A DNA stretch of 64,000 nucleotides from an uncultured bacterium (lineage in GTDB: Bacteria; Oederibacteriota; JAAXVQ01; JAUVAV01). Of this stretch, positions 4,923-27,166 are shown in pieces. The position numbers and the translations under genes were made by a program. The first letter of the stretch is position 1. The number at the start of each line of letters is the position of its first letter. The notes beneath the pieces were generated by a model. It searched no databases. It saw only the letters and a list, made by a program, of their open reading frames with translations, and had not been told where the DNA came from. Location of the stretch: assembly GCA_963710755.1 (NCBI GenBank), contig CAVQBK010000003.1, forward strand, positions 821,211-885,210, in the 5' to 3' direction.

Positions 4923-5114
4923 CCAGCAAAAGACGTGTCAATAGAATTTTTATTAAGATTGCCAAAAAACTTTAAAAATAATTCGAAAATTTTTCATCTT
5001 TCGGGAGATCTACGCGATTGCGGGAATAAAGCTTAGACCATTACCAGCACAGGGCCGTTTTGCTTTCCTGTGAACATCAAGCGCGTCATCGTAACCAACG
5101 AGTCCCACGGAGGC

Positions 5115-6227
5115 ATGCGGGTGCTAGACTTTTTGAAAAACCGCAGTTTAATTGGTCTGGATATTGGCAATCACATGATCAAGGCTGTCCAAATGAAACG
5201 GAAAGGCGATGCGCTTCGTTTGGTAAGTCTGGCCGTGGCGGAAGTCCCTCCTGAAGTCCAGGAAGAAGCCGATCCCTATCTTAAAAATGACCTGCTCTCC
5301 GCCTGCATAAAACAGTTGATGAAAGACAATGATATTAAAGGCACCCAGGTGGTTTCGGCCATTGCCGGAGACGCGGTTATTGTCCGCTACGTCAAACTGC
5401 CTTATATGAGCGAAGACGAACTTAAAAATGTCATCTCCTATGAAGCCGAACAATATATACCCCTGGCCATAGACCAAGTGGTGCTGGATTTTGAAGTGCT
5501 GGGCGAACTGGAAGAGGATGGCCAGCGTAAAATTGAAGTACTGCTGGTGGCCGCCAAAGAAGAAATTATAGAACAACACATGGCCCTTTTAAAACAAACC
5601 GGTCTAGCGCCTGCGGTCATTGACGTGGATTCCTTTGCCCTGCAAAATTGTCATGAATACAATTACGACGTGGTGGCCGGGGAGACGATCGCCTTGATCA
5701 ATATCGGCGCCAAGCTGACCACCATCAATATTCTGGAGGGCGGCATTACCCACCTTACCCGGGATGTAGCCGTGGCAGGCAACAATTTCACGCGCGAAAT
5801 CCAGCGTGAATTCGATCTGTCCTTTCCGGAAGCGGAAAAAATGAAAAAGGACGAAGGGGAAGTACTGATTGAATCGGAAGACATTATGCAAATGGAAATT
5901 CCTAAAAAGGATGATAAAGCCACTAAAATAGGAGATTCCTTCACGCCTGTGCTCAACAAATTGGTGGCCGAGATACAGCGTTCCTTTGATTACTATGAAA
6001 GTTCCATCAAGAAAAGCCCGGTCACCAGGATTATTCTTTCCGGAGGAACATCGCAGCTTAAAAATTTGGATAAATACCTGGCTGAGAAGCTGGACGTGGC
6101 GGTGGAACTAAACAATCCTTTTAAACATATTCAGATACCGGAGAAAGAGTTCGACTTGGAGTATATCGCCGCCAATGCCCAATTGTTTAATATTGGCGTG
6201 GGCCTGGCCCTGCGTCAGATGGAGTAA
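5115..6227 (+). CDS. pilM: Type IV pilus assembly protein PilM (actin-like ATPase)
   Basis: 'LIGLDIGNHMIKAVQM' N-terminal actin fold and ~370 aa length. The ORF extends upstream to a GTG at 5070, but the ATG at 5115 gives the canonical ~13-residue N-terminus before LGLDIG. The start is uncertain. Confidence 0.8.
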   Translation: MRVLDFLKNRSLIGLDIGNHMIKAVQMKRKGDALRLVSLAVAEVPPEVQEEADPYLKNDLLSACIKQLMKDNDIKGTQVVSAIAGDAVIVRYVKLPYMSEDELKNVISYEAEQYIPLAIDQVVLDFEVLGELEEDGQRKIEVLLVAAKEEIIEQHMALLKQTGLAPAVIDVDSFALQNCHEYNYDVVAGETIALINIGAKLTTINILEGGITHLTRDVAVAGNNFTREIQREFDLSFPEAEKMKKDEGEVLIESEDIMQMEIPKKDDKATKIGDSFTPVLNKLVAEIQRSFDYYESSIKKSPVTRIILSGGTSQLKNLDKYLAEKLDVAVELNNPFKHIQIPEKEFDLEYIAANAQLFNIGVGLALRQME

Positions 6228-6230
6228 CTT

Positions 6231-12132: not shown

Positions 12133-12201
12133 GTCCGGGCTGAACATAAAGAACAGGCCACAACTCCCCGTCTATGAGTCGGGGCAATTTAATATTCAGG
12201 A

Positions 12202-13116
12202 ATGGATGTGAATGCGATGATTAAAACCTTTCAAGAATTAGTGGAAAGAGCCAAGGGCTGTCACCGGACTATCTCCGTGGCGGTGCCGGAAACCAAGGAG
12301 ATTATGCTGGCGCTTAACAAAGCTTACTACGAAGGCGTGGCGGAAATTGTCATGGCCGGCGACAAAGAAAAAATAGATGCCCTGCGCCTGGAACTTAACC
12401 TCGATTTTCCCATCAAGACGCTGGTTGATGCCAAGGATGAAAAAACAGCGGCCTATGAAGCGGTACGCTTGATTTCCGAGGGACAGGCACAATTGTTGAT
12501 GAAAGGCAATCTTAAAACCAGTACCATCTTGTCCGCGCTCCTGAATAAAGATTTTGGTTTGCGCACGGACCGGCTTATTTCACATGTGTTCATTCTGGAG
12601 AGCAAGGTATGCGGCCGCCTGTTGTACATCAGCGATTCAGCTGTGAACATCGCTCCTGATTTAAATCAAAAAGCCCAAATCCTGCAAAATGCCATTGATT
12701 TTCTCCATGCTCTGGATTATGAGCAGCCCAAAGCCGCAGCACTGGCAGCCGTGGAATACGTTAATGACAAGATGCCGGCCACCGTGGAAGCGGAACGCTT
12801 GCAAATCATGGCCCAAAAAGGGGAGATTACCGGTGCCCTGGTGAGCGGACCTCTGGCCCTGGATGATGCCTTGTCCCCCTGGGTATGCCGGGAAAAGGGT
12901 GTGGAGGGACCGGTGCAGGGAGATGCCGATATTCTGTTGGTTCCTGATATTGAAGCAGGCAACATGCTTTCCAAATCCCAAACGTTTTTGGCCAATGAAC
13001 CGCTGGCCGGTGTGGCTATTGGCGCCAAGGTGCCCATGGTTTTAAATTCCCGCGCCGACACCGTGGACAACCGGTTTTATGCCATTGCCGTGGCCTGTCT
13101 GGCTTCCAAAAAGTAA
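12202..13116 (+). CDS. Phosphate acetyl/butyryl-transferase family protein (Ptb-like)
   Basis: ~300-aa short form with the Pta/Ptb C-terminal motifs 'SRADTVDNR' and 'VSGPLALDDA'. No adjacent acyl-kinase gene. Confidence 0.7.
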   Translation: MDVNAMIKTFQELVERAKGCHRTISVAVPETKEIMLALNKAYYEGVAEIVMAGDKEKIDALRLELNLDFPIKTLVDAKDEKTAAYEAVRLISEGQAQLLMKGNLKTSTILSALLNKDFGLRTDRLISHVFILESKVCGRLLYISDSAVNIAPDLNQKAQILQNAIDFLHALDYEQPKAAALAAVEYVNDKMPATVEAERLQIMAQKGEITGALVSGPLALDDALSPWVCREKGVEGPVQGDADILLVPDIEAGNMLSKSQTFLANEPLAGVAIGAKVPMVLNSRADTVDNRFYAIAVACLASKK

Positions 13117-13291
13117 AGCTATAAACGAGAACCTTGGGCATTAAATTGCAAAAGTAAACGTCACAAGTAGAGCGTCGAACGGCGTCAAGCTGTTATTTCT
13201 AGGTTTTGCTACTTGTGCCGTTGTTGGCGGGATCAATGCTCAAATGTTCGGGAGCGTACGCTACTAACTGCTCGAGCTCCAGGGAGGGGCC

Positions 13292-14413
13292 ATGAGGCTG
13301 GGGCAAGTTAAATACTGGGTCGTTAACCTATGGCTGTTGCTACTGTTTTTTGCCATGCCTTTGCTGGGCACGGTCATGCACGGCCACAGCCTTGGTGCTT
13401 ACCTCGTTTTTCCCTTTAAGGCGCGACGCATCGATCACCATGGCTTCTCCTGGATGGTTTTTATCCTGCTGGCGGCTGTGGTCCTGGTGCCGGTGGTCCT
13501 GGTACAAAGCCGCATCTGGCGAACGCCCAAAAAGCATGTTAGTCACCTGTCACCGGTCTATCCCTGGCCTTGGTGGGGTACAGTGGGTATATTGATGTTG
13601 GGGCTAAGCTGGTTCTTAGCCTGGACACGGCAGCTTTGGTTTGAATGGGGCCAGTTATTTACCTTTTTCCCCCTCTGGTTTTCCTTTATTCTTGTGCTCA
13701 ATGCGCTCACTTATCGGCGCAGTGGGCGATGTCTGTTGATGACCCAGCCTAAGCGGCTGCTTGGGCTCTTTGGTGCCAGTGCGCTGTTTTGGTGGGGATT
13801 TGAATACTTAAATCAATTCGTGGACAACTGGCATTACCTGGGATTGATTCATCTGCCGGATTTGGTCTATGGTCTGAATGCCACCTTGTGCTTTTCCACA
13901 GTATTGCCGGCAGTCGCCAGTACCCGCAACTGGCTGGCCACCTTTCCTCATTTGGGTCGTGGTCTGAATAATGCCTGGAAGGTTACACTGCATCATCCCC
14001 GGCTGTGGGCCTGTTTAGGCCTGGGGTGGAGTTATTTAGGCATGGTGGGATTGGCCCTATGGCCTGACTATCTTTTTCCTTTGTTATGGCTGGCACCAGC
14101 CGGGGCGATGATGAGTTTGCAGGTTTTGCGGCGCCGTTCCAGCTGGTGGACCGATGTGAAAAAAGGGCATTGGCGCGAACTTTACTTATGGGCTGTGGCC
14201 GCTTTGGGATGCGGCTTTCTTTGGGAACTCTGGAATAGTTTGAGTCTGGCTAAATGGGTTTATACGGTGCCTTGGGTGGATCGCTATCATCTTTTTGAAA
14301 TGCCTTTGTTGGGTTATGCGGGGTATTTATTTTTCGGTCTTGAATGTGCCTTGGTGATCTATGCTTTATGGCCACCGTCAGCAGGCAAGATTGGCCAGGA
14401 CAGCAGCAACTAA
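13292..14413 (+). CDS. Trp-rich polytopic integral membrane protein, function unknown
   Basis: Eight or more hydrophobic segments. Unusually high Trp content with many WxxW and WW pairs. No recognizable catalytic motif. Confidence 0.5.
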   Translation: MRLGQVKYWVVNLWLLLLFFAMPLLGTVMHGHSLGAYLVFPFKARRIDHHGFSWMVFILLAAVVLVPVVLVQSRIWRTPKKHVSHLSPVYPWPWWGTVGILMLGLSWFLAWTRQLWFEWGQLFTFFPLWFSFILVLNALTYRRSGRCLLMTQPKRLLGLFGASALFWWGFEYLNQFVDNWHYLGLIHLPDLVYGLNATLCFSTVLPAVASTRNWLATFPHLGRGLNNAWKVTLHHPRLWACLGLGWSYLGMVGLALWPDYLFPLLWLAPAGAMMSLQVLRRRSSWWTDVKKGHWRELYLWAVAALGCGFLWELWNSLSLAKWVYTVPWVDRYHLFEMPLLGYAGYLFFGLECALVIYALWPPSAGKIGQDSSN

Positions 14414-14456
14414 AGGGAATGCTTGTGACGCAGCCAACTGCCCTAGGAGGTGGACC

Positions 14457-15017
14457 ATGTTTAAACCGCCCATCGTTGGAGTGATCCTTATGCTGGCCCT
14501 ATGGTTGACCGCGGTGGTCACTCAAGCCAAACTTAAAACTACCCATTCGGACCATTTGGTCAAGGAGGTCAGCACCATGCATCTTACCAGCAAAGCTTTT
14601 CAAGAAGGAGCATTTATTCCCCTGCGTTATACCTGTGATGGTCAGGACATCTCACCGCCTCTGCAATGGAGTCAAGTGCCTACGGAGGCGAAAAGCCTGG
14701 TCCTGATCTGTGATGATCCTGATGCCCCCATGGGCACCTGGGTCCACTGGATTGTGGTGGACCTGCCACCTGACAGCAAGGGATTGGCCGAAGGGGAGCC
14801 TGTGCCCAAACCGGCCCGGGAACTTAAAAACAGTTCCGGCCGCATAACCTATGGCGGCCCTTGTCCGCCTCACGGCATACACCGGTACTTTTTTAAACTT
14901 TACGCTCTGGATGTGCCGACGCTGGAAAAAGTCACACCGCAAACATTGCCGGCTCTGCTTCAGGAGCATACACTGGCGGAAGTGCACTTGATGGGCCGCT
15001 ATCAACGGCAACAGTAA
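14457..15017 (+). CDS. YbhB/YbcL-family PEBP (Raf-kinase-inhibitor-like) protein, secreted
   Basis: 'DPDAP.GTWVHW', 'GY.GPCPP.G.HRY' and 'YALD' PEBP motifs. GGAGG ribosome-binding site 6 nt before the ATG at 14457, followed by a signal peptide. The upstream part of the ORF (from 14361) overlaps the previous gene. Confidence 0.75.
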   Translation: MFKPPIVGVILMLALWLTAVVTQAKLKTTHSDHLVKEVSTMHLTSKAFQEGAFIPLRYTCDGQDISPPLQWSQVPTEAKSLVLICDDPDAPMGTWVHWIVVDLPPDSKGLAEGEPVPKPARELKNSSGRITYGGPCPPHGIHRYFFKLYALDVPTLEKVTPQTLPALLQEHTLAEVHLMGRYQRQQ

Positions 15018-16474: not shown

Positions 16475-18511
16475 ATGGATACATTAGAATATAAAGATTT
16501 GTTTATCAGCGAGTCTTTGGAACACTTGGATCAGCTTAACCAAGCCCTGCTGGCACTGGAAAAAGACCCTCAAAATCCCAATGCCCTCAATGAAATCTTT
16601 AGAACTTCCCATACCCTCAAAGGCATGGCCGCCACCATGGGCTTTGATCAAATTACCGAATTAACCCATCAAATGGAAAATATTCTGGACAAAATGCGTA
16701 GCAATGAACAGGAAGTCACCACAGACGTCATTGATATCCTGTTTGAATGCCTCGATGCCTTGGGGTTACTGATTGAAGAAATCTCCAGCGCTGATCCCAA
16801 ACATTTGGATTTGAGTTTGCTGCTGGGGAAATTAAATGATCTGGAGCATCAAAAACACGATGCCAGCAAACCGGTCGTAAAAAAGATAACAGCCGGCCAA
16901 GAGGAAACGTCTCAAGGCCAAGTGGTGGAGCAGGAAGTCACCAAGGATCATCTGGAAGATTTATTGACCCACGCCGCCCAGGAAAATTATGTCACTTATG
17001 GCATTACCGTGCAGGTGGAAGAGAGCTGTACCTTCAAGGGGGTGCGTGCCTTCATGGTGTATAAAGCTCTTTCCGAACAAGGTGAAATCATTGCCAGTAT
17101 TCCGGCACCGGAAATATTGCAGGAAGGCGAGTTCGGTCTGGAATTCATCCTGGTATTGCTCTCCAAGCGGGCCAAAACCTTCATTGAACGGGCCATCAAA
17201 AACGTGGCTGAAATCGCCTCCTTTGCCGTAGAAGTACTTTCTGAAGAAAATTTGGAAGGCTTCCTCGAAGAAAAACAGGCCGACGGCCGCATGCTGGTAA
17301 GCAACGCGATAGCCAAGGAGGATGTGCAGCCCAAACAACAGGCCCAGCAGAAAAATGTTAACCGTATTTTGCAGAGCATTCGGGTCAGCATCGAACGGCT
17401 GGACAATCTGCAAAATCTGGTGGGCGAATTGATCATCAACAAAATCCGCTTAATGCAATTATCCAAGCAATTTGATTTGGGCGAGCTTAAAGAAGCCCTG
17501 GCCCAGTTTGACCGCATTACCAACGAATTACAGGATGAAGTGACGGAAGTGCGCATGGTGCCCATGGAGCATATTTTCAACCGTTTTCCACGCATGGTGC
17601 GCGATCTGGCCAAGGAGAATGGCAAGGAAATCGAGTTGGTCATGGAAGGCAAGGACATTGAGCTGGATCGCACGGTGCTCGACGAAATTCACGATCCCCT
17701 GGTACACCTGCTGCGCAATTCCATTGACCATGGCATTGAGCCGCCTGATGAACGGCTGGCTATGCATAAGGCGCGGGTGGGTCAGATCCGGTTGGTGGCG
17801 ACCAGGGAAAAAAATCATGTCATCATCAAAGTTTATGATAACGGCCGGGGTATTGATTCGGCCAGGATCAAGCAATTGGCGTTGGAACGGGGATTGATCA
17901 GTCGCGATGAAGCGGAACGGATGAACGACCAGGAGGCCATCAACCTGGTGGCATTGCCCGGCTTTACCACGGCCACTAAAGTTACTGAGATCAGCGGCCG
18001 CGGGGTGGGGGTAGACGCGGTGCGTACCAAGATCGAATCTTTTGGCGGTAATTTGAGCATAGAAAGCGAGGTCGGCAAGGGCAGCACCTTTATTTTAAGG
18101 ATGCCCATGACGCTGGCGATCATCCAGGCACTGCTTTTTAGAACCAAAGAAGAAATTTACGCCATTCCGGTTATTAATACGGTGGAAACCATTGAATACA
18201 ATGACGAAGACATTAAATTGGTGCAGCAAGGAGAAGTGGTACTTTACCGCAACAGCGTGCTGCCCCTGGTCAGGTTACATCAGCTTCTGGAAGTCCCCGG
18301 ACCGGAGCATCAGGGCGAAGGCCGGGCGATTTTGATCACGGAAGTAGGCGACATGCGTGTTGGCCTGCTGGTGGATGAAGTGCTGGGGCAGCAGGAAATT
18401 GCCATCAAATCCCTGGGACAAATGCTCAAAGGCATCCGCGGCCTGTCAGGGGTCACAATTTTAGGCGACGGACGTATTGCTTTGGTGCTGGATGTACCGA
18501 GTTTGATTTAA
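16475..18511 (+). CDS. cheA: Chemotaxis histidine kinase CheA
   Basis: HPt phosphotransfer region 'FRTSHTLKGMAATMGF', dimerization region, HATPase_c 'DNGRGID…GRGVGVD…GKGSTF' and a C-terminal CheW-like domain. Confidence 0.9.
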   Translation: MDTLEYKDLFISESLEHLDQLNQALLALEKDPQNPNALNEIFRTSHTLKGMAATMGFDQITELTHQMENILDKMRSNEQEVTTDVIDILFECLDALGLLIEEISSADPKHLDLSLLLGKLNDLEHQKHDASKPVVKKITAGQEETSQGQVVEQEVTKDHLEDLLTHAAQENYVTYGITVQVEESCTFKGVRAFMVYKALSEQGEIIASIPAPEILQEGEFGLEFILVLLSKRAKTFIERAIKNVAEIASFAVEVLSEENLEGFLEEKQADGRMLVSNAIAKEDVQPKQQAQQKNVNRILQSIRVSIERLDNLQNLVGELIINKIRLMQLSKQFDLGELKEALAQFDRITNELQDEVTEVRMVPMEHIFNRFPRMVRDLAKENGKEIELVMEGKDIELDRTVLDEIHDPLVHLLRNSIDHGIEPPDERLAMHKARVGQIRLVATREKNHVIIKVYDNGRGIDSARIKQLALERGLISRDEAERMNDQEAINLVALPGFTTATKVTEISGRGVGVDAVRTKIESFGGNLSIESEVGKGSTFILRMPMTLAIIQALLFRTKEEIYAIPVINTVETIEYNDEDIKLVQQGEVVLYRNSVLPLVRLHQLLEVPGPEHQGEGRAILITEVGDMRVGLLVDEVLGQQEIAIKSLGQMLKGIRGLSGVTILGDGRIALVLDVPSLI

Positions 18512-18676: not shown

Positions 18677-19324
18677 ATGGCCGATGAGTTACGTCAGGAG
18701 GATGGAAAGTTGCCGGATATTCGGGCCTTAACCAAACTACAACTGGATGCCATTCGGGAAGTGGGCAATGTTGGTGCCGGTCATGCAGCCACGGCATTGT
18801 CCCAAATGATCGGAAAGAAGATTCTGATAACGGTGCCCAAAGTTTTATGCATGCCCATCGAGAAGACCAGCGACTTGGTGGGCGGCCCCAAGAACCTGGT
18901 GGCTGGCGTAACCATGCAGGTTTTGGGTGACGTGTCGGCCAAGATCGTACTCATGCTGCCGCGAAAAAGCGCATTGCAACTGGCCGGGCTGCTAACGCAA
19001 AATGACCTGGAAGAACATCAGCCCTTGTCGGCAATGGAACATTCTGCTATAAAAGAAGCAGGCAATATTCTGGCCGGCGCTTACCTCAACGCGCTTACCG
19101 AATTTTTAGGACTCATGCTGCTCCAGAGCGTGCCCCAACTGGTGTTTGACATTGCCGACGCCGTGGTCACGGAGATTGCCAAAGGTTATCCGCCCATGAC
19201 AGAGATCATCTGCATTGGCACCCAGTTCAGTGAATCGGAGAGTATTATGCAGGGCTTCCTGTTATTGATTCCTGATCAAGCATCTTTGGATGCAATCTTA
19301 AAGGCTACCCAAATAAATGCATGA
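18677..19324 (+). CDS. cheC: CheC-family chemotaxis phosphatase
   Basis: Two CheC-type repeats 'EVGNVGAGHAATALS' and 'EAGNILAGAYLNAL'. ~215 aa. Confidence 0.75.
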   Translation: MADELRQEDGKLPDIRALTKLQLDAIREVGNVGAGHAATALSQMIGKKILITVPKVLCMPIEKTSDLVGGPKNLVAGVTMQVLGDVSAKIVLMLPRKSALQLAGLLTQNDLEEHQPLSAMEHSAIKEAGNILAGAYLNALTEFLGLMLLQSVPQLVFDIADAVVTEIAKGYPPMTEIICIGTQFSESESIMQGFLLLIPDQASLDAILKATQINA

Positions 19325-21456
19325 GTGAACAGCCCTTGATTTTTTCATTGGATATCGGCACCCGCAAAGTGGCGGGGGTGGTGCTGACCAGGACGGCGGA
19401 AGGATTGAGCGTGCTGGCCGCGGATATGCTCGAGCACCCGGACCGGGCCATGCTTGACGGCCAAGTGCACAAGGTTGAAGCCGTGGCCCAAGTGGTGCGC
19501 CAGCTTAAAGCTTCCCTGGAAAAGCAACTGGGACGGCCTTTAACCACAGCTTGTGTGGCAGCTGCCGGACGGGCGCTGCTCACCGAGTCCTTCGAGAAAA
19601 AAATTAACTTTCCCTACCCAACGGAAATCACCCGACCGGAAGTACGGGCCTTGGAGCTGTCTGCAGCCCGGGGCGCTCAAGCTGCCTTACAAGCCAAAGA
19701 AAAAAACTACCAACTCCACTGCGTGGGTTATTCCACGGTGCATTACCAACTGGACGGTGAGATCATCGAGGATCTGGTTGGGCATCAGGCCAAAAGCATC
19801 AGCGCCAAAGTCATTGCCACCTTTTTGCCGCGGCAAGTGGTGGATGCGCTCCTGACGGTATTGCGTCAAGCCGGGCTGGAAGCAGAACAACTGACCTTGG
19901 AGCCTATTGCCGCTATCGAGGCCACTATTCCTCAGGATTTACGACGTATGAATCTGGCGCTGGTTGATATTGGCGCCGGCACGTCCGATATTGCCCTGAC
20001 CCGGGAAGGATCGGTGTTTGCTTATGATATGGTCACCATTGCCGGTGATGAAGTTACCGAGTACTTGAGCGATCACTATTTATTGGAGTTTCACGAAGCA
20101 GAGCGGGTAAAACGAGCGTTGCTGCTTACCGATAGTCCGACCATCAGGTTCCAAACCTTACTGGGACAGGAACAGGAGCTTGCCAAACAGGAAATGATCG
20201 CGACCTTGGAACCGGCGGTCAACCGCTTGGCCGAAGCCATTGGTCAGGGGATCTTAAAACTCAATGAGCAACCCCCTCGGGCGGTGATCATGGTAGGCGG
20301 TGGAAGCGGCACACCCAACCTGGGTCCGGCCTTGGCCCGCTTGCTGCAGGTTGACCCGCACCGCATTGGGGTGAGGGGGCCGCAAACCATTACCAGTATT
20401 AAAAATAGGCCGGCCAACATGGCAGGCATTGAATGGGTGACGCCCATGGGTATTGGCCTGATTGCCGCCCAAGACCAGGGCTTGCGCTTTAAAAAAATTA
20501 AGGTTAATGACCGCTGGGTGCAGTTATTGGCACTCCACGATCATACCACCCTATTTGATGCCTTGCTGGCCGCAGGCCACGATGCTAAACACCTAGTGGC
20601 CCGGCCGGGCCGGGCGGTGACCTACACAGTGGATGGCCAATTCATGAGTTTGCCCGGCGCACCGGGCCAGCCGGCGGAGCTCACAGTCAATGGACAGATA
20701 GCCAATTTGGACACGCCGCTGCCGGAGGATGCAGTCATTAAGGTGACAGAAGCCCAACCAGGACAGGACGCTGAACTGACCACGGCCATGATCCGCCAAC
20801 CTCAGGGCCAGAGTTTTTGTCTTATTAATCAGGTTCAAGTGCCACTGACGCTGGCCTTATTTGACCATGACCAGCCGGTGGACCACAAGCAACCTATTGC
20901 CGACCGGGCGGTCCTGCAATGGCGCAGCGCTCAATCTCTGGAAGCTTTGGTGCCGGAATTAAGGCAGCGGTTGGACCAAGAACGGCAAATGACCATCAAG
21001 ATCAACGGCCAGGAACGCAAACTAAAAGAGTCCAAAGTGACGATCATGAAAGACGGCCGGCCTTTGGAGACCAATTACCATCCCTGTCCTGGCGACCGTA
21101 TTGTCTGGCAGGTGGAAGAAGAGAAAAAAATGGTGCTGCGCGAACTGGTGGAAACCCTGCCCCAACGCCAGACCATCACCGTCACCCTTAACGGCGAACC
21201 CAAGGTGATTGATGCCGGCGGCAGCAAAATTCTCATCAACGGACAGGTGGCGGCTCATCCTGCTGTTGATCTTCAGGACCGCGATGAGGTGCGCGTGGAA
21301 CATGTTCCCGGAGCACCGCCGCTATTGTCCCAAGTGCTCGAAGGCCTGACCCCACCGCCGCAAGCGGGGCCTATTAAAATCAAGGTCAACGGCCAAGCCG
21401 CCGGATTTGCCACGCCCTTGGAAGACGGCGCTAAAATCGAAATTTCTTTTGGATAA
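19321..21456 (+). CDS. FtsA/PilM-like actin-fold ATPase with C-terminal tandem β-grasp-like repeats
   Basis: The N-terminal ~385 aa carry actin-fold phosphate motifs 'FSLDIGTRKVAGVV' and 'LALVDIGAGTSDIAL'. The C-terminal ~325 aa carry 4-5 repeats of the form 'I.(I/V).VNGQ…(I/L).(I/V)NGQ…L.D.D.V.V'. ATGA overlap with the cheC stop codon. Confidence 0.6.
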   Translation: MSEQPLIFSLDIGTRKVAGVVLTRTAEGLSVLAADMLEHPDRAMLDGQVHKVEAVAQVVRQLKASLEKQLGRPLTTACVAAAGRALLTESFEKKINFPYPTEITRPEVRALELSAARGAQAALQAKEKNYQLHCVGYSTVHYQLDGEIIEDLVGHQAKSISAKVIATFLPRQVVDALLTVLRQAGLEAEQLTLEPIAAIEATIPQDLRRMNLALVDIGAGTSDIALTREGSVFAYDMVTIAGDEVTEYLSDHYLLEFHEAERVKRALLLTDSPTIRFQTLLGQEQELAKQEMIATLEPAVNRLAEAIGQGILKLNEQPPRAVIMVGGGSGTPNLGPALARLLQVDPHRIGVRGPQTITSIKNRPANMAGIEWVTPMGIGLIAAQDQGLRFKKIKVNDRWVQLLALHDHTTLFDALLAAGHDAKHLVARPGRAVTYTVDGQFMSLPGAPGQPAELTVNGQIANLDTPLPEDAVIKVTEAQPGQDAELTTAMIRQPQGQSFCLINQVQVPLTLALFDHDQPVDHKQPIADRAVLQWRSAQSLEALVPELRQRLDQERQMTIKINGQERKLKESKVTIMKDGRPLETNYHPCPGDRIVWQVEEEKKMVLRELVETLPQRQTITVTLNGEPKVIDAGGSKILINGQVAAHPAVDLQDRDEVRVEHVPGAPPLLSQVLEGLTPPPQAGPIKIKVNGQAAGFATPLEDGAKIEISFG

Positions 21457-21462
21457 CTGTTA

Positions 21463-22557
21463 ATGACTGATGACCAATTGGCACTCATTGCCCTCAACCG
21501 GATCGAGGGTCTGGGACCCACCACTATCCATCGTTTGTGCACCCACTTTCAGAATCCCCAAGCTGTTTTCGATGCGTCTTTTACCGACTTGATCAGCCTG
21601 CCTCATGTCAATGAAAACGTGGCTAAGCGTTTGCTGCACGAAGATTGGCGGTATCAGGCCATGAGGGAGTTGGAAAAGGCCGAAGACCAACAATGTCATA
21701 TCCTGACCTGGGACCATCCCGACTATCCCAGGCTGCTTAAGGCCGTGGACTTTCCCCCGCCCGTGATCTATGTGAAAGGCCGCCTGGCGGCTGAAGATCA
21801 TCAGGCGTTGGCCTTAGTGGGTTGCCGCAAACCCACAGCCTATGGTCAGCAGGCAGCCAAATCCTTTACCAAAGCACTGGTTAAAGCGGGGTTCACCATT
21901 GTCTCCGGTTTGGCTTATGGCATTGACCGGGTGGCCCATGAAACCGCGCTGGAACAGGGCGGCCGAACCCTAGCCGTTGTAGCCCATGGGGTGGATGGCC
22001 TTTACCCACAAGCCCATCGCAGCTTACGGGATACCATCATTACCCAAGGTGCCGTTATTTCCGAATTTCCTTTGGGTACACCGGCCTTGGCGCAACATTT
22101 TCCCAGACGCAACCGCCTTATCAGTGGTCTGGCACAAGGCGTGTTGGTTATAGAAGCAGCCCAGCGCTCAGGAGCGTTGATTACCGCCAAATGGGCGGGA
22201 GAGCAAGGCCGGGAAGTGTTTGCTTTGCCGGGCCCCTATTTTTCCGCCCAATCCCAAGGTTGCCATAATCTGATTGCAGACGGGGCCAAACTGGTCACCT
22301 CTCTTAAAGATATTGTGGGAGAACTGCCGGCTGTTCCCATAGCCCCACCTCAACCATCGCCTGAGTCCGCGGAACCAGTCCCTTTAGGAGAACAGGAAGC
22401 CGCCATTGTGCATCTGCTGCAGGTCCAACCCTTACATATTGATCAACTAAGCCAACACCTGGAGTGCCCGGTACAGGACCTTTTTGCAAACCTTTTGACT
22501 TTGGAACTCAAAGGGATTATCATTGGCCGTCCGGGACAACACTACCAGCTTGCCTGA
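21463..22557 (+). CDS. dprA: DNA processing protein DprA (Smf)
   Basis: Rossmann-like DprA core 'LALVGCRKPTAYGQQAA…IVSGLAYGIDRVAHE…AVVAHGVDGLYP'. Lies upstream of topA, as in Bacillus (smf-topA). Confidence 0.85.
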   Translation: MTDDQLALIALNRIEGLGPTTIHRLCTHFQNPQAVFDASFTDLISLPHVNENVAKRLLHEDWRYQAMRELEKAEDQQCHILTWDHPDYPRLLKAVDFPPPVIYVKGRLAAEDHQALALVGCRKPTAYGQQAAKSFTKALVKAGFTIVSGLAYGIDRVAHETALEQGGRTLAVVAHGVDGLYPQAHRSLRDTIITQGAVISEFPLGTPALAQHFPRRNRLISGLAQGVLVIEAAQRSGALITAKWAGEQGREVFALPGPYFSAQSQGCHNLIADGAKLVTSLKDIVGELPAVPIAPPQPSPESAEPVPLGEQEAAIVHLLQVQPLHIDQLSQHLECPVQDLFANLLTLELKGIIIGRPGQHYQLA

Positions 22558-22587
22558 GTCTATCGTTTGTGTCGAAAGGACCAATCC

Positions 22588-23358
22588 ATGTCCATGCGGT
22601 TTGTCATGATTATACTATTGGCGGGCGTCGGCTTGCTGGCCGGGACCGTGAACAGTCATGCGCAGCTTACGGCTGGCGCCGGTATGGCTTATGAAATCAG
22701 CAAATTGTCGGTGATAGACGAAAGTGACCGCTATTTCCACACCCTGCTGCAAAGCACGTTGATCATGGCCTCGGTGACTTATGAGCAGCCGGCTTTGGCC
22801 CTGGAGCTGCAAGGCGGCTGGTCTGATTGGAATGTGAGCGGTGACTGGCAGGGCACTAATGTGGCCCAAACCAGTACGGACCTACTGGGTTGGCTGGCCC
22901 AGCAGCAAATGGCCTTAAAGGCCGTGGTTAGACCATGGTCCAATGTTTATGTTGGCGCCAGAGTGGAAGACATCCGGCAGCGTCATTACTCGGGACAGGA
23001 TGATATCACCTTTTTGACGCTTCACAGCCTGGCCTGGGAAATGCTTGCTGGCTGGGAATGGTTTCACTATAAAGGAGTTCACCTGTCTTCGGAACTGGGG
23101 TTTGCCCCGCAAGGCCGGTTATGGGTGGGCCAGAACACGCATATCCCCCTTCAGGAATTTGCCCTTCACGAGTATAGTGAGGCCGCCCGCTTTAATCGCC
23201 TGCGCGGGACTATGGCCATGATCTATGATGACAGCGAAGGCTGGAGATTAGCGCTGGCTTATACTTTGGACTACAGCCAAGCCCAGCAGCTGAACAGGCT
23301 TAAGTCGTTGTCTGTACGTCATGGCCAATTGCGGGCATTATTCTCCCTCAAGTTTTAA
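22588..23358 (+). CDS. Outer-membrane β-barrel protein (signal peptide, C-terminal Phe)
   Basis: Signal peptide 'MRFVMIILLAGVGLLAGTVNSHA', alternating amphipathic β-strand pattern, and a C-terminus '…LFSLKF' typical of BAM-dependent outer-membrane proteins. Confidence 0.5.
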   Translation: MSMRFVMIILLAGVGLLAGTVNSHAQLTAGAGMAYEISKLSVIDESDRYFHTLLQSTLIMASVTYEQPALALELQGGWSDWNVSGDWQGTNVAQTSTDLLGWLAQQQMALKAVVRPWSNVYVGARVEDIRQRHYSGQDDITFLTLHSLAWEMLAGWEWFHYKGVHLSSELGFAPQGRLWVGQNTHIPLQEFALHEYSEAARFNRLRGTMAMIYDDSEGWRLALAYTLDYSQAQQLNRLKSLSVRHGQLRALFSLKF

Positions 23359-23645
23359 TACAATTCCATTCACCCCGGGCTTGCCCCGGGACGAACCGCA
23401 GACTTATTCAGAGGAAAAACAAATGGTTATTTCCATCATTATTACTGCTTAAATAGAAAATCCTCAGGGCAAATCGCGGGAATTTTAAAACACCTCAAAA
23501 AATTGCCATCTTTGGTTAAAAAAATCATGAAAACAACCGAGCTTATTATAATGAAGCCCAATGGGCGCCCATAACCTGGCATGGCTGTTGGCAAGTGCTT
23601 TATTTTGACACGACGCTAGCCAACAGGGCCTTTCCGGCCTTTCTG

Positions 23646-23674
23646 TTGACATGAAAAGGGAGCTGTGCTTAAAT
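23646..23674 (+). promoter_or_regulatory. Candidate promoter TTGACA-N17-TTAAAT upstream of topA
   Basis: Consensus -35 at 23646-23651, 17-nt spacer, then a 4-of-6 match -10 TTAAAT. Lies ~30 nt upstream of the topA ATG. Confidence 0.3.
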
Positions 23675-23705
23675 TAGGGCCATATTTTATAGATAGGATC
23701 GTTTT

Positions 23706-26003
23706 ATGGCAAAGCATCTGGTTATTGTGGAATCCCCAGCCAAAGCGAAAACCATCAACAAGTTTCTGGGGAAAAATTATCTTGTCAAAGCCTCCATGGG
23801 CCATGTTCGTGATTTACCCAAAAGTAAACTCGGCGTGGACGTTGAAGATCACTTCAAACCTCACTATATTACCATCCGGTCCAGATCGAAAATTTTAAAA
23901 GAATTAAAACGCATGGCCAACACAGCTCAACATATATACCTGGCCGCTGACCCGGACCGGGAAGGGGAGGCCATTTCCTGGCACCTGAGCAAAGAATTGC
24001 AAACCGCCAAAAATCAGGTACACCGGGTGATGTTTAATGAAATCACTAAAAAAACGGTATTGGAAGCCATTCAAAAACCTCTGGAGATCAACCAAAATAT
24101 GGTTAATGCCCAGCAGGCTCGTCGTATTCTGGATCGTCTGGTGGGATACAGCATCTCGCCTTTATTATGGAAAAAGGTGAGAAAAGGTCTTTCCGCCGGT
24201 CGGGTGCAATCCGTCACGGTCCGGCTGGTGGTGAACCGCGAGCGTGAAATCGAGGCCTTCTTGCCCAAGGAATATTGGAAAATCGATGTGCTTCTGGAAA
24301 CCGAGGACAAGGCCTCGTTGCTGTCCCATGTTACTCACGTGGGGGAGCAGAAAATCGACATTGACAATGGAACCGACGCCCAAGCTGTGGTGGAAACACT
24401 TAACACCGCGGCCTATCGGGTGTCCCATATTGAGAAAAAAGAACAGAGACGAAAACCACCGGCGCCTTTTATCACCAGTAAATTACAACAGGAAGCTGCC
24501 AGCAAACTTCACTTTACCGCCAAAAAAACCATGATGGTGGCTCAGCAACTGTACGAAGGCTTGGAAATCGGCCAGGATGGACCGGTGGGGTTGATCACTT
24601 ATATGCGCACCGACTCCATGCGTGTTAACGAGGAAGCGCAGACTCAAGCGCGGGCCTATATCAGCGAGCACTACGGCGCGGATTTTGTGCCGGAAAAACC
24701 GCCGGTGTATAAATCCAAGAAACAAATCCAGGATGCCCATGAAGCTATTCGTCCCTCCACGCCCAGTGCGGACTATACGCCCGACAGTCTTAAACAATAC
24801 CTTAGCCACGATCAATACCGGTTGTATAAATTGATTTGGCAACGATTTTTAGCCTCCCAAATGACACCGGCCGTGTTTGATGCCACTACCGTGGACATTG
24901 AGGCTGGTCATGTTCGGCTGCGCACAACAGGGTCTATTTTGAAATTCAAGGGCTTTACCACGGTCTATATGGAAACCGCCGCCGAAGGCCAGGAGGAAGC
25001 GCAAGACAACCAGGACAGCCACCTGCCTGATCTGCAACAGGGTCAGGCGCTCTTTTTATTGGAAATTAAACCGGAACAAAAATTCACCCAACCGCCGCCG
25101 CGCTATAATGATGCCAGTCTGGTCAAGGCCTTGGAGGAAAACAATATCGGAAGGCCCAGCACCTATGCTCCTATTATCAGCACCATTCTGGACCGTGATT
25201 ATGTGGAGCGCCGGGAAGGCCGTTTCTTCCCGACCGAGCTGGGCATGATCATCAATGATCTGCTGGTGGAACATTTCCCCGATATCCTGGATGTGGAATT
25301 CACAGCCGCCATGGAGAATAACCTGGACAGCATTGAAGAAGGCCAGGCTCAGTGGGATCAAGTGCTCGCTCAATTTTACCAGTCTTTCAAGCTGGAATTG
25401 GACAAGGCCCAGGAGGAGATGAAAAATATCAAATCCAAGGTGGAAGTGGAGCTGGAGCAGCGTTGTGAAAAATGCGGCTCTCCTTTAACGGTAAAGTGGG
25501 GACGTCATGGTAAATTCATTGCCTGCACCAATTACCCTGCCTGCAAAAATACCAAACCCATGGCGGTAGATGATCAGGGCAAGATCGTGGTCAAGGAAGA
25601 AGAAACCGTGGAGGAAACCTGTGAAAAATGCGGTTCGCCACTGGTGGCTAAATACGGCCGTTTTGGCCGTTTTCTGGCCTGCAGCCGATATCCGGAATGC
25701 AAGTTTACCAAGGCCATCAATCAGGAAATCGGGGTAGCTTGCCCCAAGCCGGACTGCGGCGGTCAAATCATTGAACGACGCAGTAAAAAAGGCAGACTGT
25801 TTTATGGCTGCAGCCATTACCCCAAGTGCGACTTTGTGTCCTGGGACCGTCCTGTGCCTCAGGCCTGCCCGGTGTGCGGGCAGGCTTATGTGGTGGAAAA
25901 ATATTCCAAAAAAACAGGTAAGACTATCCAATGTCCGGCAGAGGGTTGTGATTATAAAGTGGCGCTCAATCCGGAAACTCCTTCGCAAGGACAATCGACA
26001 TGA
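23706..26003 (+). CDS. topA: DNA topoisomerase I
   Basis: TOPRIM N-terminus 'LVIVESPAKAKTI', active-site region 'GLITYMRTDS', and three C-terminal Cys4 zinc ribbons (CEKCGSPL…C..YP.C). Confidence 0.95.
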   Translation: MAKHLVIVESPAKAKTINKFLGKNYLVKASMGHVRDLPKSKLGVDVEDHFKPHYITIRSRSKILKELKRMANTAQHIYLAADPDREGEAISWHLSKELQTAKNQVHRVMFNEITKKTVLEAIQKPLEINQNMVNAQQARRILDRLVGYSISPLLWKKVRKGLSAGRVQSVTVRLVVNREREIEAFLPKEYWKIDVLLETEDKASLLSHVTHVGEQKIDIDNGTDAQAVVETLNTAAYRVSHIEKKEQRRKPPAPFITSKLQQEAASKLHFTAKKTMMVAQQLYEGLEIGQDGPVGLITYMRTDSMRVNEEAQTQARAYISEHYGADFVPEKPPVYKSKKQIQDAHEAIRPSTPSADYTPDSLKQYLSHDQYRLYKLIWQRFLASQMTPAVFDATTVDIEAGHVRLRTTGSILKFKGFTTVYMETAAEGQEEAQDNQDSHLPDLQQGQALFLLEIKPEQKFTQPPPRYNDASLVKALEENNIGRPSTYAPIISTILDRDYVERREGRFFPTELGMIINDLLVEHFPDILDVEFTAAMENNLDSIEEGQAQWDQVLAQFYQSFKLELDKAQEEMKNIKSKVEVELEQRCEKCGSPLTVKWGRHGKFIACTNYPACKNTKPMAVDDQGKIVVKEEETVEETCEKCGSPLVAKYGRFGRFLACSRYPECKFTKAINQEIGVACPKPDCGGQIIERRSKKGRLFYGCSHYPKCDFVSWDRPVPQACPVCGQAYVVEKYSKKTGKTIQCPAEGCDYKVALNPETPSQGQST

Positions 26004-27157
26004 GCGCTCTTAAACTGCCCGCGCTTCGTCCCATCGTGGAGAACATTCCCCTTCAGACCGCCAAACTGGACCGGATTTTAGCGGAGAGTCAGAGCCGGGT
26101 GGCCAGCTATCTCGATATCCGTTATCAAGACTGCCAGGAAATTATTTTCCTACTTGGCGGCAAAGCCGTTAAAGCCGGCCGCTTCAGCAGCAAGGACAAC
26201 AGCCGCATGAGCTTGAATGTCAAGGATGCCCTGCAGCGCTTGAAGCAGCAGGAAGACGGTATGATCCACTTTTATGAAATCTCCAAAGTGCTGATGGTGG
26301 TCATCCTGGGGACTTTTGTGTTCAAACCCACCCATGCTAAATTAAAAAGCAAGCTCATTGATTTTCACAGCCTGCTCGAATTGCTGGCGCGCAAGCATTT
26401 TATAGGTTATTTGGAATTGAAGACCCGTACAGGTCTTAATTATCTGACCTTTTTTAACGGCCAGGCGCGGGACGGTTACTTTGCCGATGATGTCAGTGCT
26501 TTGCAGGATAAGAAACCTGCGGAGATCATTGCCGCTTTGGTGGAACAGTCGGATGAAAAAGGTGAGATCAATGTTTTTGAATCCGTGGGGGAGGAAGAAT
26601 TGCATGACCATGGTCGCGGTGCCTCTCCTGAAGAAAGACCACAAATGCAAGGCCCGGCTGCCACTCCCTATGCTGATGTGGAAAGTACGGATCAGTACGC
26701 GGCAGAGATGGTCGACCTCTGTGTGGTGGCCATCTTTGAAGAACTCTTTCGGCTTATGGTCACAATCAGTGCCCGCCAGCTGCCGGCCACGGCCATTGAC
26801 ACCTTGTTCATGGAATGTCTTAAAAACGCCACGTTAAAGCATGCCACCTTGTTACGGGGAGCCGGCACCAAGGAGGATGGCGCTTTGTTGCCCACGGGGC
26901 TCATTAATTTTGAACGCTTGCTTAAATCCAAGGACAAATTGCCTTCCACGACCAGGGAAAAGGATTTTATGGAAGGGCTGACGGACCTGACGGCTTTTCG
27001 CCTGACGGCCATGCAACGCGAACTGGAACCATCGCTTTTCCAGCAGGGGGTGGACGAGTTGCGGTCCAAACTGACAGGCTTTCGCAAGAATTATCAAGGC
27101 AACTATGCCATTACTAAATATATCGACGCCTTGACCCGCCTATTCGACCAGTTGTAA
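26000..27157 (+). CDS. Conserved hypothetical protein (occupies the position trmFO holds in Bacillus between topA and xerC)
   Basis: 385-aa ORF with an ATGA overlap on the topA stop codon. It has no FAD/GAGLAG motif and so is not TrmFO. It contains an acidic low-complexity linker. No family assignable by eye. Confidence 0.5.
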   Translation: MSALKLPALRPIVENIPLQTAKLDRILAESQSRVASYLDIRYQDCQEIIFLLGGKAVKAGRFSSKDNSRMSLNVKDALQRLKQQEDGMIHFYEISKVLMVVILGTFVFKPTHAKLKSKLIDFHSLLELLARKHFIGYLELKTRTGLNYLTFFNGQARDGYFADDVSALQDKKPAEIIAALVEQSDEKGEINVFESVGEEELHDHGRGASPEERPQMQGPAATPYADVESTDQYAAEMVDLCVVAIFEELFRLMVTISARQLPATAIDTLFMECLKNATLKHATLLRGAGTKEDGALLPTGLINFERLLKSKDKLPSTTREKDFMEGLTDLTAFRLTAMQRELEPSLFQQGVDELRSKLTGFRKNYQGNYAITKYIDALTRLFDQL

Positions 27158-27166
27158 AATCACGCT

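What the first reader, a model, noticed from the sequence alone, without database searches (positions are those of the whole stretch)
19321..21456. FtsA/PilM-like actin ATPase fused to a tandem array of β-grasp-like 'I.VNGQ' repeats, coupled to cheC
The N-terminal ~385 aa form an unambiguous FtsA/PilM-type actin fold, with phosphate-1 'LDIGTRKVAGVV' and phosphate-2 'VDIGAGTSDIAL'. The C-terminal ~325 aa contain 4-5 units of the form 'hKhxVNGQ…hxhNGQ……L.DgDxVxV', reminiscent of ThiS/MoaD-type β-grasp modules. The gene overlaps the stop codon of cheC (ATGA) and sits directly after an orphan cheA. A canonical pilM is already present at 5115 within the same window, so this is a second, structurally distinct actin-like protein. 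An actin-like ATPase with a repeat tail, translationally coupled to a CheA/CheC pair, does not correspond to any well-known module. It could be a chemosensory-controlled cytoskeletal or pilus-positioning element.
Basis: partly seen in the sequence, partly recalled or inferred. Interest (0 to 1): 0.75.

Follow-up and report, generated by a model that had tools for sequence, protein, structure and literature searches.

The report
FtsA-like ATPase with ubiquitin-like tail
This gene encodes a member of a widespread but unstudied protein family that joins an FtsA/PilM-type actin-like ATPase to a chain of ubiquitin-like (β-grasp) modules, and in one deep branch of the family, including this genome and some archaea, the gene is built into chemotaxis operons next to a dedicated CheC, which suggests an unrecognised accessory part of chemosensory systems.

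Summary

It is neither FtsA nor PilM: it falls below both NCBIfam cut-offs, none of 169 related loci contains ftsZ, it has no C-terminal membrane helix, and the real pilMNOQ cluster lies elsewhere in the window.

The protein belongs to a fixed-architecture family (about 500-870 clusters at 50% identity) that carries only generic database names. I found no paper describing it.

Gene context depends on the clade. Bacilli carry the gene alone. Clostridia place it beside c-di-GMP enzymes or cheR. All cheA/cheC-linked members form one deep clade (this lineage, Omnitrophota, PVC, Methanolobus), and there the gene always touches a CheC paralogue.

Best reading (confidence about 0.45): an ATP-dependent scaffold whose β-grasp arm docks Che proteins, acting as an accessory or output module. 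Function is untested.

The parts
16475..18511 (+). cheA, a histidine kinase with Hpt, P2, dimerisation, HATPase and CheW-like domains
   Evidence: Pfam hits for all five domains. NCBIfam CheA 567 bits.
18677..19324 (+). cheC, a CheY-P phosphatase family gene whose stop codon overlaps the target's start codon
   Evidence: Pfam CheC 76 bits in two stretches. Both phosphatase motifs are present, at residues 24 and 123. ATGA overlap read directly.
19321..21456 (+). Target gene, 711 aa: FtsA/PilM-like ATPase fused to a poly-β-grasp C-terminal array
19321..20472 (+). Residues 1-384: actin-like ATPase domain with the FtsA/PilM-type SHS2 (1C) insert, approximately residues 85-170
   Evidence: Foldseek to FtsA E ~1e-28, TM 0.72, over about 390-400 aligned columns. 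PDB phmmer hit to FtsA, E 2e-14.
19348..19383 (+). Phosphate-1 motif LDIGTRKVAGVV (residues 10-21)
   Evidence: L10, D11, G13, T14, R15 and G19 are invariant in 32 homologues.
19963..19998 (+). Phosphate-2 motif VDIGAGTSDIAL (residues 215-226)
   Evidence: D216, G218, A219, G220, T221, D223, I224 and A225 are invariant.
20296..20307 (+). Adenosine-binding motif GGGS (residues 326-329)
   Evidence: G326, G327, G328 and S329 are invariant.
20476..20616 (+). M1a (residues 386-432): β-hairpin plus helix that opens the first β-grasp module
   Evidence: AF2 secondary structure. Only weak similarity to the repeats.
20608..20760 (+). Repeat M1b (residues 430-480)
   Evidence: hhalign against M2, M3 and M4: 97-99% probability.
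20800..20940 (+). Repeat M2 (residues 494-540)
   Evidence: hhalign, E 1e-11 to 3e-18.
20977..21120 (+). Repeat M3 (residues 553-600)
   Evidence: hhalign, E 3e-17 to 2e-18.
21160..21312 (+). Repeat M4 (residues 614-664)
   Evidence: hhalign, E 7e-16 to 2e-18.
21358..21453 (+). Half-repeat M5 (residues 680-711), the most conserved unit (VNGxxAxFTTPLxDGxxIEI). Together with the preceding helix it matches the ThiS profile.
   Evidence: Pfam ThiS hit at residues 669-708. hhalign 96-98%. Self-match 453 to 686.
21463..22557 (+). dprA, starting 6 nt after the target's stop codon. Part of the conserved target-dprA-(orf)-topA-xerC synteny.
   Evidence: Pfam DNA_processg_A 263 bits plus DprA_WH. Same synteny in L082 and L083.
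22567..23358 (+). Conserved ORF of unknown function (263 aa, no Pfam hit). Probably the last gene of the co-directional unit.
   Evidence: No Pfam hit. A 254-aa counterpart sits at the same position in L082 and L083.
5070..6227 (+). Canonical pilM, with pilN, pilO and pilQ downstream. It is a separate paralogue and not part of the unit.
   Evidence: PilM_2 217 bits, full length. 21% identity to the target's N-terminal half.

Best explanation
The gene encodes a member of an uncharacterised family with a fixed architecture. A cytoplasmic FtsA/PilM-type actin-like ATPase is followed directly, after the last helix of the actin fold, by a chain of about five small ThiS/ubiquitin-like β-grasp modules in place of FtsA's membrane-targeting helix.

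In this genome the gene belongs to the subfamily that is built into chemosensory operons. It is transcribed with cheA, translationally coupled to a cheC paralogue, and followed by dprA.

Most likely mechanism:
- The ATPase core binds ATP and self-associates, or clamps a partner peptide, as FtsA and PilM do.
- The poly-β-grasp arm serves as a multivalent docking platform for Che proteins, first of all the adjacent CheC paralogue.
- The protein therefore organises, positions or relays the output of the chemosensory complex. This would be an actin-fold counterpart of the ParA-type ATPases (PpfA, ParC) that other che operons encode.

Shown: the architecture, the conserved ATP-site residues, the start/stop overlap, the deep conservation of che embedding, and the distinct CheC paralogues.

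Inferred: ATP-dependent assembly, direct CheC binding, and the scaffold/positioning/output role.
For: Architecture and fold.

Fixed architecture: an exhaustive search with the C-terminal profile finds the array essentially only at about residues 385-715 of 700-735-aa proteins (498 clusters at E<=1e-30, 869 at E<=1e-10).

Che embedding:
- FCPU426-like MAGs have cheA-cheC-T-dprA, with the same 4-nt overlap.
- A PVC MAG has cheW-cheY-cheD-cheB-cheA-cheC-T-topA.
- Omnitrophota have MCP-cheW-cheY-cheC-cheD-cheB-cheA-cheC-T, or cheA-cheC-T-cheR-cheD-cheB-cheC-MCP.
- Archaeal Methanolobus has cheY-cheB-cheA-cheC-like-T-cheR-cheC-cheC-cheD.
- L012 and L086 have (pilQ)-...-cheB-cheA-T-cheC-....

Census: 25 of 168 loci have che genes within 3 kb, and 21 have cheA, cheC or cheR adjacent on the same strand.

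Phylogeny: all cheA/cheC-linked members form one deep clade at only about 35-40% identity, with rearranged che gene orders. A second clade pairs the gene with cheR.

Partner: in every cheA-linked locus the target directly abuts a CheC-family gene. These CheCs cluster apart from the CheD-paired CheCs of the same genomes and often lack one or both phosphatase motifs.

Operon signals: no convincing terminator between cheA and orf263.

Precedent: a positioning ATPase encoded in che operons, PpfA, is found in the che operons of 37% of species surveyed (PMC2829493).
Against: About 85% of sampled family members are not near che genes.
- Bacilli carry the gene as a solitary unit between aroA and ytxJ.
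- Other clades sit next to nth and GAF-GGDEF, mutS2, dprA/topA or metabolic genes.
- The ancestral function may therefore have nothing to do with chemotaxis.

The cheA/cheC linkage traces to a single clade, so it could be one ancient fusion of neighbourhoods that was then inherited. The NJ tree has no support values.

This window holds only cheA and cheC. There is no cheW, cheY or MCP, so the system's output here is unknown.

No interaction, ATPase or polymerisation data exist. I could not inspect model coordinates to parse the β-grasp domains or their surfaces.
Confidence: 0.45

Rival explanations
1. The protein is a general housekeeping actin-like protein, for example with an envelope, nucleoid, DNA-transaction or ribosome-rescue role. 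Its position after cheA-cheC is inherited synteny, a remnant of an old dprA-topA-xerC-hslVU / fla-che supercluster, without direct function in signalling.
For: - Most family members are not che-linked. Bacilli have it monocistronic.
- It is recurrently adjacent to dprA/topA in different orders (window; L029, L067, L082-L085) and to mutS2 (7 loci).
- The cheA/cheC linkage is confined to one clade.
- The window order dprA-topA-xerC-hslVU matches the Bacillus region upstream of the fla/che operon (plus my own knowledge of B. subtilis gene order).
Against: - The gene lies in the middle of che operons, not merely beside them. This holds in Methanolobus, where there is no dprA or topA nearby and the block must have been acquired by transfer.
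- The start/stop overlap with cheC is retained at about 37% protein identity.
- Che gene order around it has been reshuffled while adjacency to a CheC paralogue is kept.
- An independent cheR pairing exists in another clade.
Confidence: 0.3
2. The protein is an Hsp70/EutJ/DDR-like ATP-driven chaperone or reactivase. The actin-fold domain cycles ATP while the β-rich C-terminal region holds a client protein. In che-linked genomes the client would be a Che component.
For: - Weak Pfam DDR (reactivase) hits in 22 of 32 members, and NCBIfam EutJ hits.
- EutJ and DnaK appear among the structural and sequence hits.
- The layout, an N-terminal ~385-aa nucleotide-binding domain followed by a β-rich C-terminal region, superficially parallels Hsp70.
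Against: - FtsA and PilM score far better than EutJ or DnaK.
- The protein has the FtsA/PilM-specific SHS2 insert.
- The C-terminal modules are β-grasps, not an Hsp70 substrate-binding β-sandwich.
- No co-chaperone genes lie nearby.
Confidence: 0.1
3. The protein is an ordinary FtsA cell-division protein, or a second PilM for type IV pilus assembly.
For: - Database names say 'cell division protein FtsA' or 'pilus assembly protein PilM'.
- The fold is closest to FtsA and PilM.
- A pil cluster lies 9 kb upstream, and directly upstream of the che operon in L012 and L086.
Against: - TIGR01174 ftsA scores 90.7 bits against a cut-off of 175.85. TIGR01175 pilM scores 60.2 against 133.
- No ftsZ in 169 loci.
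- There is no C-terminal amphipathic helix.
- The window already has a full-length pilM with pilNOQ.
- The family is present in Omnitrophota, reported to lack FtsZ (PMC8178401), and in Methanolobus.
Confidence: 0.03
4. The β-grasp modules act as ThiS/MoaD-type sulfur carriers or as a bacterial ubiquitin-like conjugation or anti-phage (Bub/Bil-type) component.
For: The structural neighbours include ThiS, MoaD, SAMP1, BubA and bacterial multi-ubiquitin proteins.
Against: - There is no C-terminal Gly-Gly. The protein ends ...EISFG, and tails vary across the family.
- The modules are internal to a 711-aa protein.
- No E1, E2, JAB, ThiF or MoeB genes appear in any inspected neighbourhood.
- PADLOC finds nothing meaningful.
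Confidence: 0.03

Closest known systems
FtsA (divisome actin homologue)
   Same: It is the best sequence and structure match for residues 1-384. It shares the actin fold with the SHS2/1C subdomain in place of 1B, and the ATP-site motifs are conserved.
   Different: - Only about 19% identity, and below the equivalog cut-off.
- Never next to ftsZ.
- The C-terminal membrane-targeting helix is replaced by a ~325-aa poly-β-grasp array.
- Embedded in che operons in one clade.
PilM (type IV pilus alignment-complex ATPase-like scaffold)
   Same: It has the same FtsA-like fold (Foldseek E ~1e-20) and is cytoplasmic. PilM works by clamping the N-terminal peptide of a partner (PilN), which is a plausible mode of action here.
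   Different: - No adjacent pilN or pilO.
- A bona fide pilMNOQ cluster exists separately in the window.
- Below the PilM subfamily cut-off.
- PilM has no β-grasp tail.
PpfA / ParC: ParA-type ATPases encoded in che operons that position and partition chemoreceptor clusters
   Same: A nucleotide-dependent 'cytoskeletal' ATPase encoded inside che operons as a non-canonical accessory (PMC2829493). This is the closest functional analogy for what the che-embedded clade may do.
   Different: The fold is unrelated (ParA/MinD Walker ATPase versus actin-like). No evidence yet that the present family positions anything.
ThiS / MoaD / SAMP / TGS β-grasp domains, and bacterial multi-ubiquitin-domain proteins
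   Different: - No Gly-Gly terminus and no E1/E2/JAB partners.
- The middle units (~45 aa) lack the helix between the hairpin and the second strand pair, and carry it in the linker instead.
- Fused to an actin-like ATPase, an architecture absent from the two β-grasp surveys I checked.

Membership tests
FtsA (cell division) | Scores above the NCBIfam equivalog model TIGR01174 cut-off (175.85 bits) | tested here: not met
   90.7 bits. PRK09472 scores 52.7 against a cut-off of 409.
FtsA (cell division) | Actin-like fold with the SHS2 (1C) subdomain | tested here: met
   Foldseek top hits are FtsA structures, E ~1e-28, TM (target) 0.70-0.73.
FtsA (cell division) | Encoded in the dcw cluster next to ftsQ/ftsZ | tested here: not met
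   No FtsZ homologue in any of 169 loci (2.5 Mb) or in the annotated parts of the window.
FtsA (cell division) | C-terminal amphipathic membrane-targeting helix | tested here: not met
   The C-terminus is a β-strand of the last β-grasp unit (E705-710) and ends ...KIEISFG.
FtsA (cell division) | Binds the FtsZ C-terminal peptide | not testable with these tools
   Needs biochemistry or complex prediction.
PilM (type IV pilus) | Scores above the TIGR01175 cut-off (133 bits), with a full-length PilM_2 match | tested here: not met
   60.2 bits. Pfam PilM_2 matches only residues 133-268 at 38.9 bits, whereas the window's real PilM scores 217 bits over its full length.
PilM (type IV pilus) | Operon with pilN, pilO, pilP and pilQ | tested here: not met
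   The neighbours are cheA and cheC upstream and dprA downstream. pilMNOQ lies at 5070-10196.
ThiS/MoaD-type β-grasp (ubiquitin-like) domain | β-grasp fold | tested here: met
ThiS/MoaD-type β-grasp (ubiquitin-like) domain | Matches the Pfam ThiS profile (PF02597) | tested here: met
   The window protein scores 27.0 bits against a gathering cut-off of 22.5, summed over weak stretches. 24 of 32 family members match, best E 6.5e-14.
ThiS/MoaD sulfur carrier or ubiquitin-like modifier | Free C-terminal Gly-Gly for adenylation, thiocarboxylation or conjugation | tested here: not met
   The protein ends SFG. C-terminal tails are variable across the family and only the DG of the last unit is invariant.
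ThiS/MoaD sulfur carrier or ubiquitin-like modifier | Associated E1-like (ThiF/MoeB), E2 or JAB genes | tested here: not met
   None in the window neighbourhood or in 15 or more annotated related loci. No meaningful PADLOC hit for the target.
Chemosensory-operon accessory protein (in the sense of PpfA/ParC, CheC/CheD/CheX) | Conserved location inside che operons across distant lineages | tested here: met
   Met for the clade containing this gene: FCPU426-like, PVC, Omnitrophota, the L012/L086 lineage and Methanolobus. Not met for the family as a whole (about 15% of loci).
Chemosensory-operon accessory protein (in the sense of PpfA/ParC, CheC/CheD/CheX) | Physical or functional interaction with Che proteins or chemoreceptor arrays | not testable with these tools
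   No multimer prediction or experiment was available.

The most novel reading that the evidence does not exclude
[quoted passage not shown] It would be an actin-like, ATP-dependent polymer or scaffold with a polyubiquitin-like docking arm that works with a dedicated, often catalytically degenerate, CheC paralogue. Together they would position chemosensory arrays or relay CheY-P-dependent output to a non-flagellar target such as type IV pili. The family as a whole would then be a new functional class of bacterial actin-like proteins, recruited to motility-related signalling modules (che, c-di-GMP).
Probability: 0.35. Interest if true: 0.8.

Novelty: new variant of a known kind. Interest (0 to 1): 0.62.

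Why it matters
Bacterial actin-like proteins with established roles are few: FtsA, MreB, ParM, MamK and the PilM scaffold. The accessory parts of chemosensory pathways are considered well catalogued.

This family has about 500-870 clusters at 50% identity and spans Bacillota, Thermotogae, Omnitrophota, PVC, FCPU426-like lineages and a methanogen. It is currently mislabelled 'FtsA', 'PilM' or 'rod shape-determining protein'.

In one deep clade it has stayed inside che operons, glued to its own CheC paralogue, through operon rearrangements and a transfer into archaea. If it scaffolds or positions arrays, or acts as a pathway output, it would add a new component to chemotaxis models. It would also give a first function for an actin-fold/polyubiquitin-like fusion.

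At the least, the annotation should change, so that these genes are not counted as FtsA or PilM in comparative studies of cell division and pili.

Tried and rejected
- A word-indexed homologue search with the C-terminal half alone returned one fragment, apparently swamped by low-information words. I replaced it with the exhaustive profile search.
- Literature: the first query was polluted by the word 'this'. Four more searches and checks of four papers found no description of the family. The archaeal 'FtsA-like homolog' in PMC8178401 concerns Methanopyri, not this family.
- I considered an Hsp70-type interdomain linker ('VTPLGIA' versus Hsp70 'VTPLSLGIE') and rejected it. The segment is the last helix of the actin fold (H370-383 in the model) and corresponds to the usual C-terminal helix of FtsA/MreB-type proteins.
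- A defence-system reading is rejected. The ShosA hit for dprA only reflects DprA homology, and the gene has the canonical dprA-topA context.
- The promoter/terminator scan was uninformative, with fewer terminator-like sites than in shuffles.
Full report
**1. Observation**

The ORF at 19321-21456 (+ strand, 711 aa) exists as described. Its ATG overlaps the TGA of the upstream gene, read directly as ...GC-ATGA-GT... at 19321-24. That upstream gene (18677-19324) is a CheC-family protein (Pfam CheC, two stretches). It retains both D/S-x3-E-x2-N-x22-P phosphatase motifs. Before it lies a complete five-domain CheA (16475-18511).

Six nucleotides after the target's stop codon, dprA starts. It is followed by a conserved ORF with no Pfam hit, then topA, another ORF with no hit, xerC and hslVU. 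No convincing terminator separates cheA from the ORF after dprA. Given gaps of 165, -4, 6 and 9 nt, these five genes read as one co-directional unit.

**2. N-terminal half**

- Pfam finds FtsA, PilM_2 and MreB. NCBIfam ftsA and pilM models match, but far below their cut-offs: 90.7 against 175.85 bits, and 60.2 against 133 bits.
- The best solved relatives by sequence are FtsA structures (7q6g, E 2e-14, residues 3-320).
- An AlphaFold2 model built on 32 diverse homologues has mean pLDDT 85.2. Foldseek places it closest to FtsA (E ~1e-28, TM 0.70-0.73), then PilM, EutJ and MreB. So it has the FtsA/PilM-specific layout with the SHS2/1C subdomain.
- The ATP-site residues are invariant across the family: D11-G13-T14, D216-G218-G220-T221-D223 and G326-GGS329. 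ATP binding is therefore very likely.

**3. C-terminal half**

The self-similarity is real. There are 28 high-scoring 15-residue self-windows against 0.66±1.3 in shuffles. At profile level, segments 430-480, 494-540, 553-600 and 614-664 are mutually homologous (hhalign 97-99%, E 1e-10 to 1e-18). Segment 680-711 is a half-unit, and 386-432 is an extra hairpin plus helix.

The Pfam ThiS family matches 24 of 32 family members (best E 6.5e-14). Ub-Mut7C matches 20 and TGS matches 15.

What I could not settle is how units 2-4 are parsed. Their helix follows the four strands rather than crossing between them, and I could not inspect model coordinates.

There is no C-terminal Gly-Gly, and no E1, E2 or JAB gene in any neighbourhood examined. 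A sulfur-carrier or conjugation role is therefore unlikely.

**4. The family**

Full-length homologues of 700-735 aa cover 99-100% of the query. They occur in FCPU426-like and Firestonebacteria-like MAGs (50-59% identity), Omnitrophota, PVC, many Bacillota, Thermotogae and Methanolobus.

An exhaustive search of 1.84 billion cluster representatives with the C-terminal profile found 1367 hits: 869 at E<=1e-10 and 498 at E<=1e-30. The match is essentially always at about residues 385-715 of a ~710-aa protein, and the shorter hits look like contig-truncated fragments. The array is thus not a mobile module. The architecture is fixed.

Names given by sources are generic and mutually inconsistent: 'cell division protein FtsA', 'pilus assembly protein PilM', 'rod shape-determining protein', 'SHS2 domain-containing protein'. 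I found no paper on the family, and the two large β-grasp surveys do not mention an actin-fold fusion.

**5. Genomic context**

I collected 168 related loci from species-representative genomes, metagenomes and look-ups. The sample is biased towards the best tblastn matches and contains a few duplicates.

| Context | Loci (of 168) |
|---|---|
| che genes within 3 kb | 25 |
| cheA, cheC or cheR adjacent on the same strand | 21 |
| GAF-GGDEF cyclase nearby | 15 |
| HD-GYP-type gene nearby | 11 |
| mutS2 nearby | 7 |
| dprA or topA nearby | 7 |

A neighbour-joining tree (no support values) shows that context follows clade:
- Bacilli carry the gene alone, between aroA-ccpA and ytxJ-ytxH-ytxG-murC.
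- One Clostridia clade has nth-T-GAF-GGDEF.
- Another clade has mutS2-T.
- A Clostridia-like clade has cheR-T, often with an HD-GYP gene nearby.
- All cheA/cheC-linked members fall into one deep clade. It holds the window protein, FCPU426-like MAGs, Omnitrophota, a PVC MAG, the L012/L086 lineage and Methanolobus.

**6. The che-embedded clade**

Here the gene lies inside the operon, not beside it.
- Omnitrophota: MCP-cheW-cheY-cheC-cheD-cheB-cheA-cheC-T, or cheA-cheC-T-cheR-cheD-cheB-cheC-MCP.
- PVC MAG: cheW-cheY-cheD-cheB-cheA-cheC-T.
- L012: MCP-cheY-cheB-cheA-T-cheC-cheY.
- L086: pilO-pilQ-cheW-cheR-cheY-cheB-cheA-T-cheC-cheC-cheD-cheY.
- Methanolobus: cheY-cheB-cheA-cheC-like-T-cheR-cheC-cheC-cheD.

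Members of this clade share only about 35-40% identity, and the che gene order differs between lineages. In every case, however, the target touches a CheC-family gene, often with a 4-nt overlap.

These adjacent CheCs mostly group apart from the CheD-paired CheCs of the same genomes. Many have lost one or both phosphatase motifs. The window's copy keeps both.

Retention through operon reshuffling and through a transfer into an archaeon argues for selection on the linkage. Che clusters occupy roughly 0.5-1% of a genome (my own rough estimate, not computed here). Against that baseline, the observed frequency is an order of magnitude or more above chance.

**7. Interpretation**

What is shown:
- a cytoplasmic FtsA/PilM-type ATP-binding core with a poly-β-grasp tail;
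- a fixed architecture across the family;
- translational coupling to a CheC paralogue;
- deep conservation of che embedding in the clade to which this gene belongs.

What I infer:
- The core self-assembles or clamps a partner peptide in an ATP-dependent way, as FtsA and PilM do.
- The β-grasp arm is a multivalent docking surface. β-grasp domains commonly serve as adaptors, and polymerising ones (DIX, SOSEKI, multi-ubiquitin filaments) are among the structural neighbours.
- The first partner is the adjacent CheC paralogue.
- The complex organises, positions or relays the output of the chemosensory apparatus.

The nearest functional precedent is PpfA, a ParA-type ATPase encoded in the che operons of 37% of species surveyed, which partitions chemoreceptor clusters (PMC2829493). 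The fold here is unrelated.

A type IV pilus cluster sits close to the che genes in this window (pilT, pilMNOQ at 3.3-10.2 kb). In L012 and L086 it lies directly upstream of the che operon. That makes a pilus-related output possible, but it remains untested.

I put about 0.45 on the accessory-of-chemosensing reading. I put about 0.3 on the rival that the family has a general housekeeping role and the che position is inherited synteny. The window's dprA-topA-xerC-hslVU order is the one found upstream of the fla/che operon in Bacillus (my own knowledge), which would fit that rival. Smaller weights go to a chaperone-like role, canonical FtsA/PilM, and ubiquitin-like conjugation.

**8. Novelty and verdict**

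This is not a new fold. It is an undescribed variant of the FtsA/PilM group: a large, misannotated family with a unique fusion and, in one clade, a strong and previously unremarked association with chemosensory operons and a dedicated CheC paralogue.

Interest is 0.62. The most novel reading not excluded is a new conserved chemosensory component and a new functional class of bacterial actin-like proteins. I give it about 0.35 probability, and it would merit about 0.8 if true.

Noticed in passing
window 49000-64000: GC content drops to 0.36-0.46 from about 0.52 elsewhere. The genes are an NAD-epimerase/dehydratase, a Wzy_C O-antigen-ligase-like protein, two GT4/GT1 glycosyltransferases, a Polysacc_synt flippase, two ORFs with no hit (56651-58865), a GT9 heptosyltransferase-like protein, a PMT_2 protein and a GT2. 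This looks like a surface-polysaccharide/LPS island, probably acquired horizontally.
   Followed up: partly
window 22567-23358 and 26000-27157: Two conserved genes have no Pfam or PADLOC hit. orf263 follows dprA, and orf385 overlaps the topA stop codon. Both have counterparts at the same positions in the FCPU426-like loci L082 and L083: 254 aa in both loci, and 383 aa in L082.
   Followed up: no
window 21463-30257: The gene order dprA-(orf)-topA-(orf)-xerC-hslV-hslU mirrors the Bacillus subtilis smf-topA-(trmFO)-codV-clpQ-clpY block that precedes the fla/che operon (my own knowledge). Here arg genes follow instead of flagellar genes. topA-xerC also follows the target directly in PVC and Omnitrophota loci.
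   Followed up: partly
window 3267-12132: A type IV pilus cluster is present: a pilT-like ATPase at 3267-4334, pilM, pilN and pilO at 5070-7348, and the pilQ secretin with an AMIN domain at 7872-10196. By synteny with L082 it is followed by aroC and aroK, the classic pilMNOPQ-aro arrangement. No flagellar genes were seen in the annotated parts of the window.
   Followed up: partly
L015 and L023 (Methanolobus), 5700-14800: This archaeal che operon carries four CheC-family genes. One is a divergent copy with no intact phosphatase motif, immediately upstream of the family member. The actin-like gene sits between it and cheR. This suggests a bacterial-type che block was transferred together with this gene.
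   Followed up: partly
L020, L021, L026, L032, L041, L045, L048, L069, L073, L098, L127, L163 (Clostridia): In one Clostridia clade the family member is flanked by endonuclease III (nth) upstream and a multi-pass membrane GAF-GGDEF diguanylate cyclase about 40-70 nt downstream. An HD-GYP-type gene often lies within 3 kb. This is a second, independent link to motility and biofilm signalling.
   Followed up: partly
L007, L080, L087, L118, L152, L160: mutS2 (MutS_V plus Smr) ends 4-58 nt upstream of the family member on the same strand, in Thermotogae and other lineages. In L087 two STAS-domain genes follow. This is unexplained.
   Followed up: no
window 21463-22557: The dprA product scores 229 bits against the PADLOC ShosA model. 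This reflects shared DprA homology. The canonical dprA-topA context argues that it is the housekeeping DprA rather than a Shosta defence gene.
   Followed up: partly
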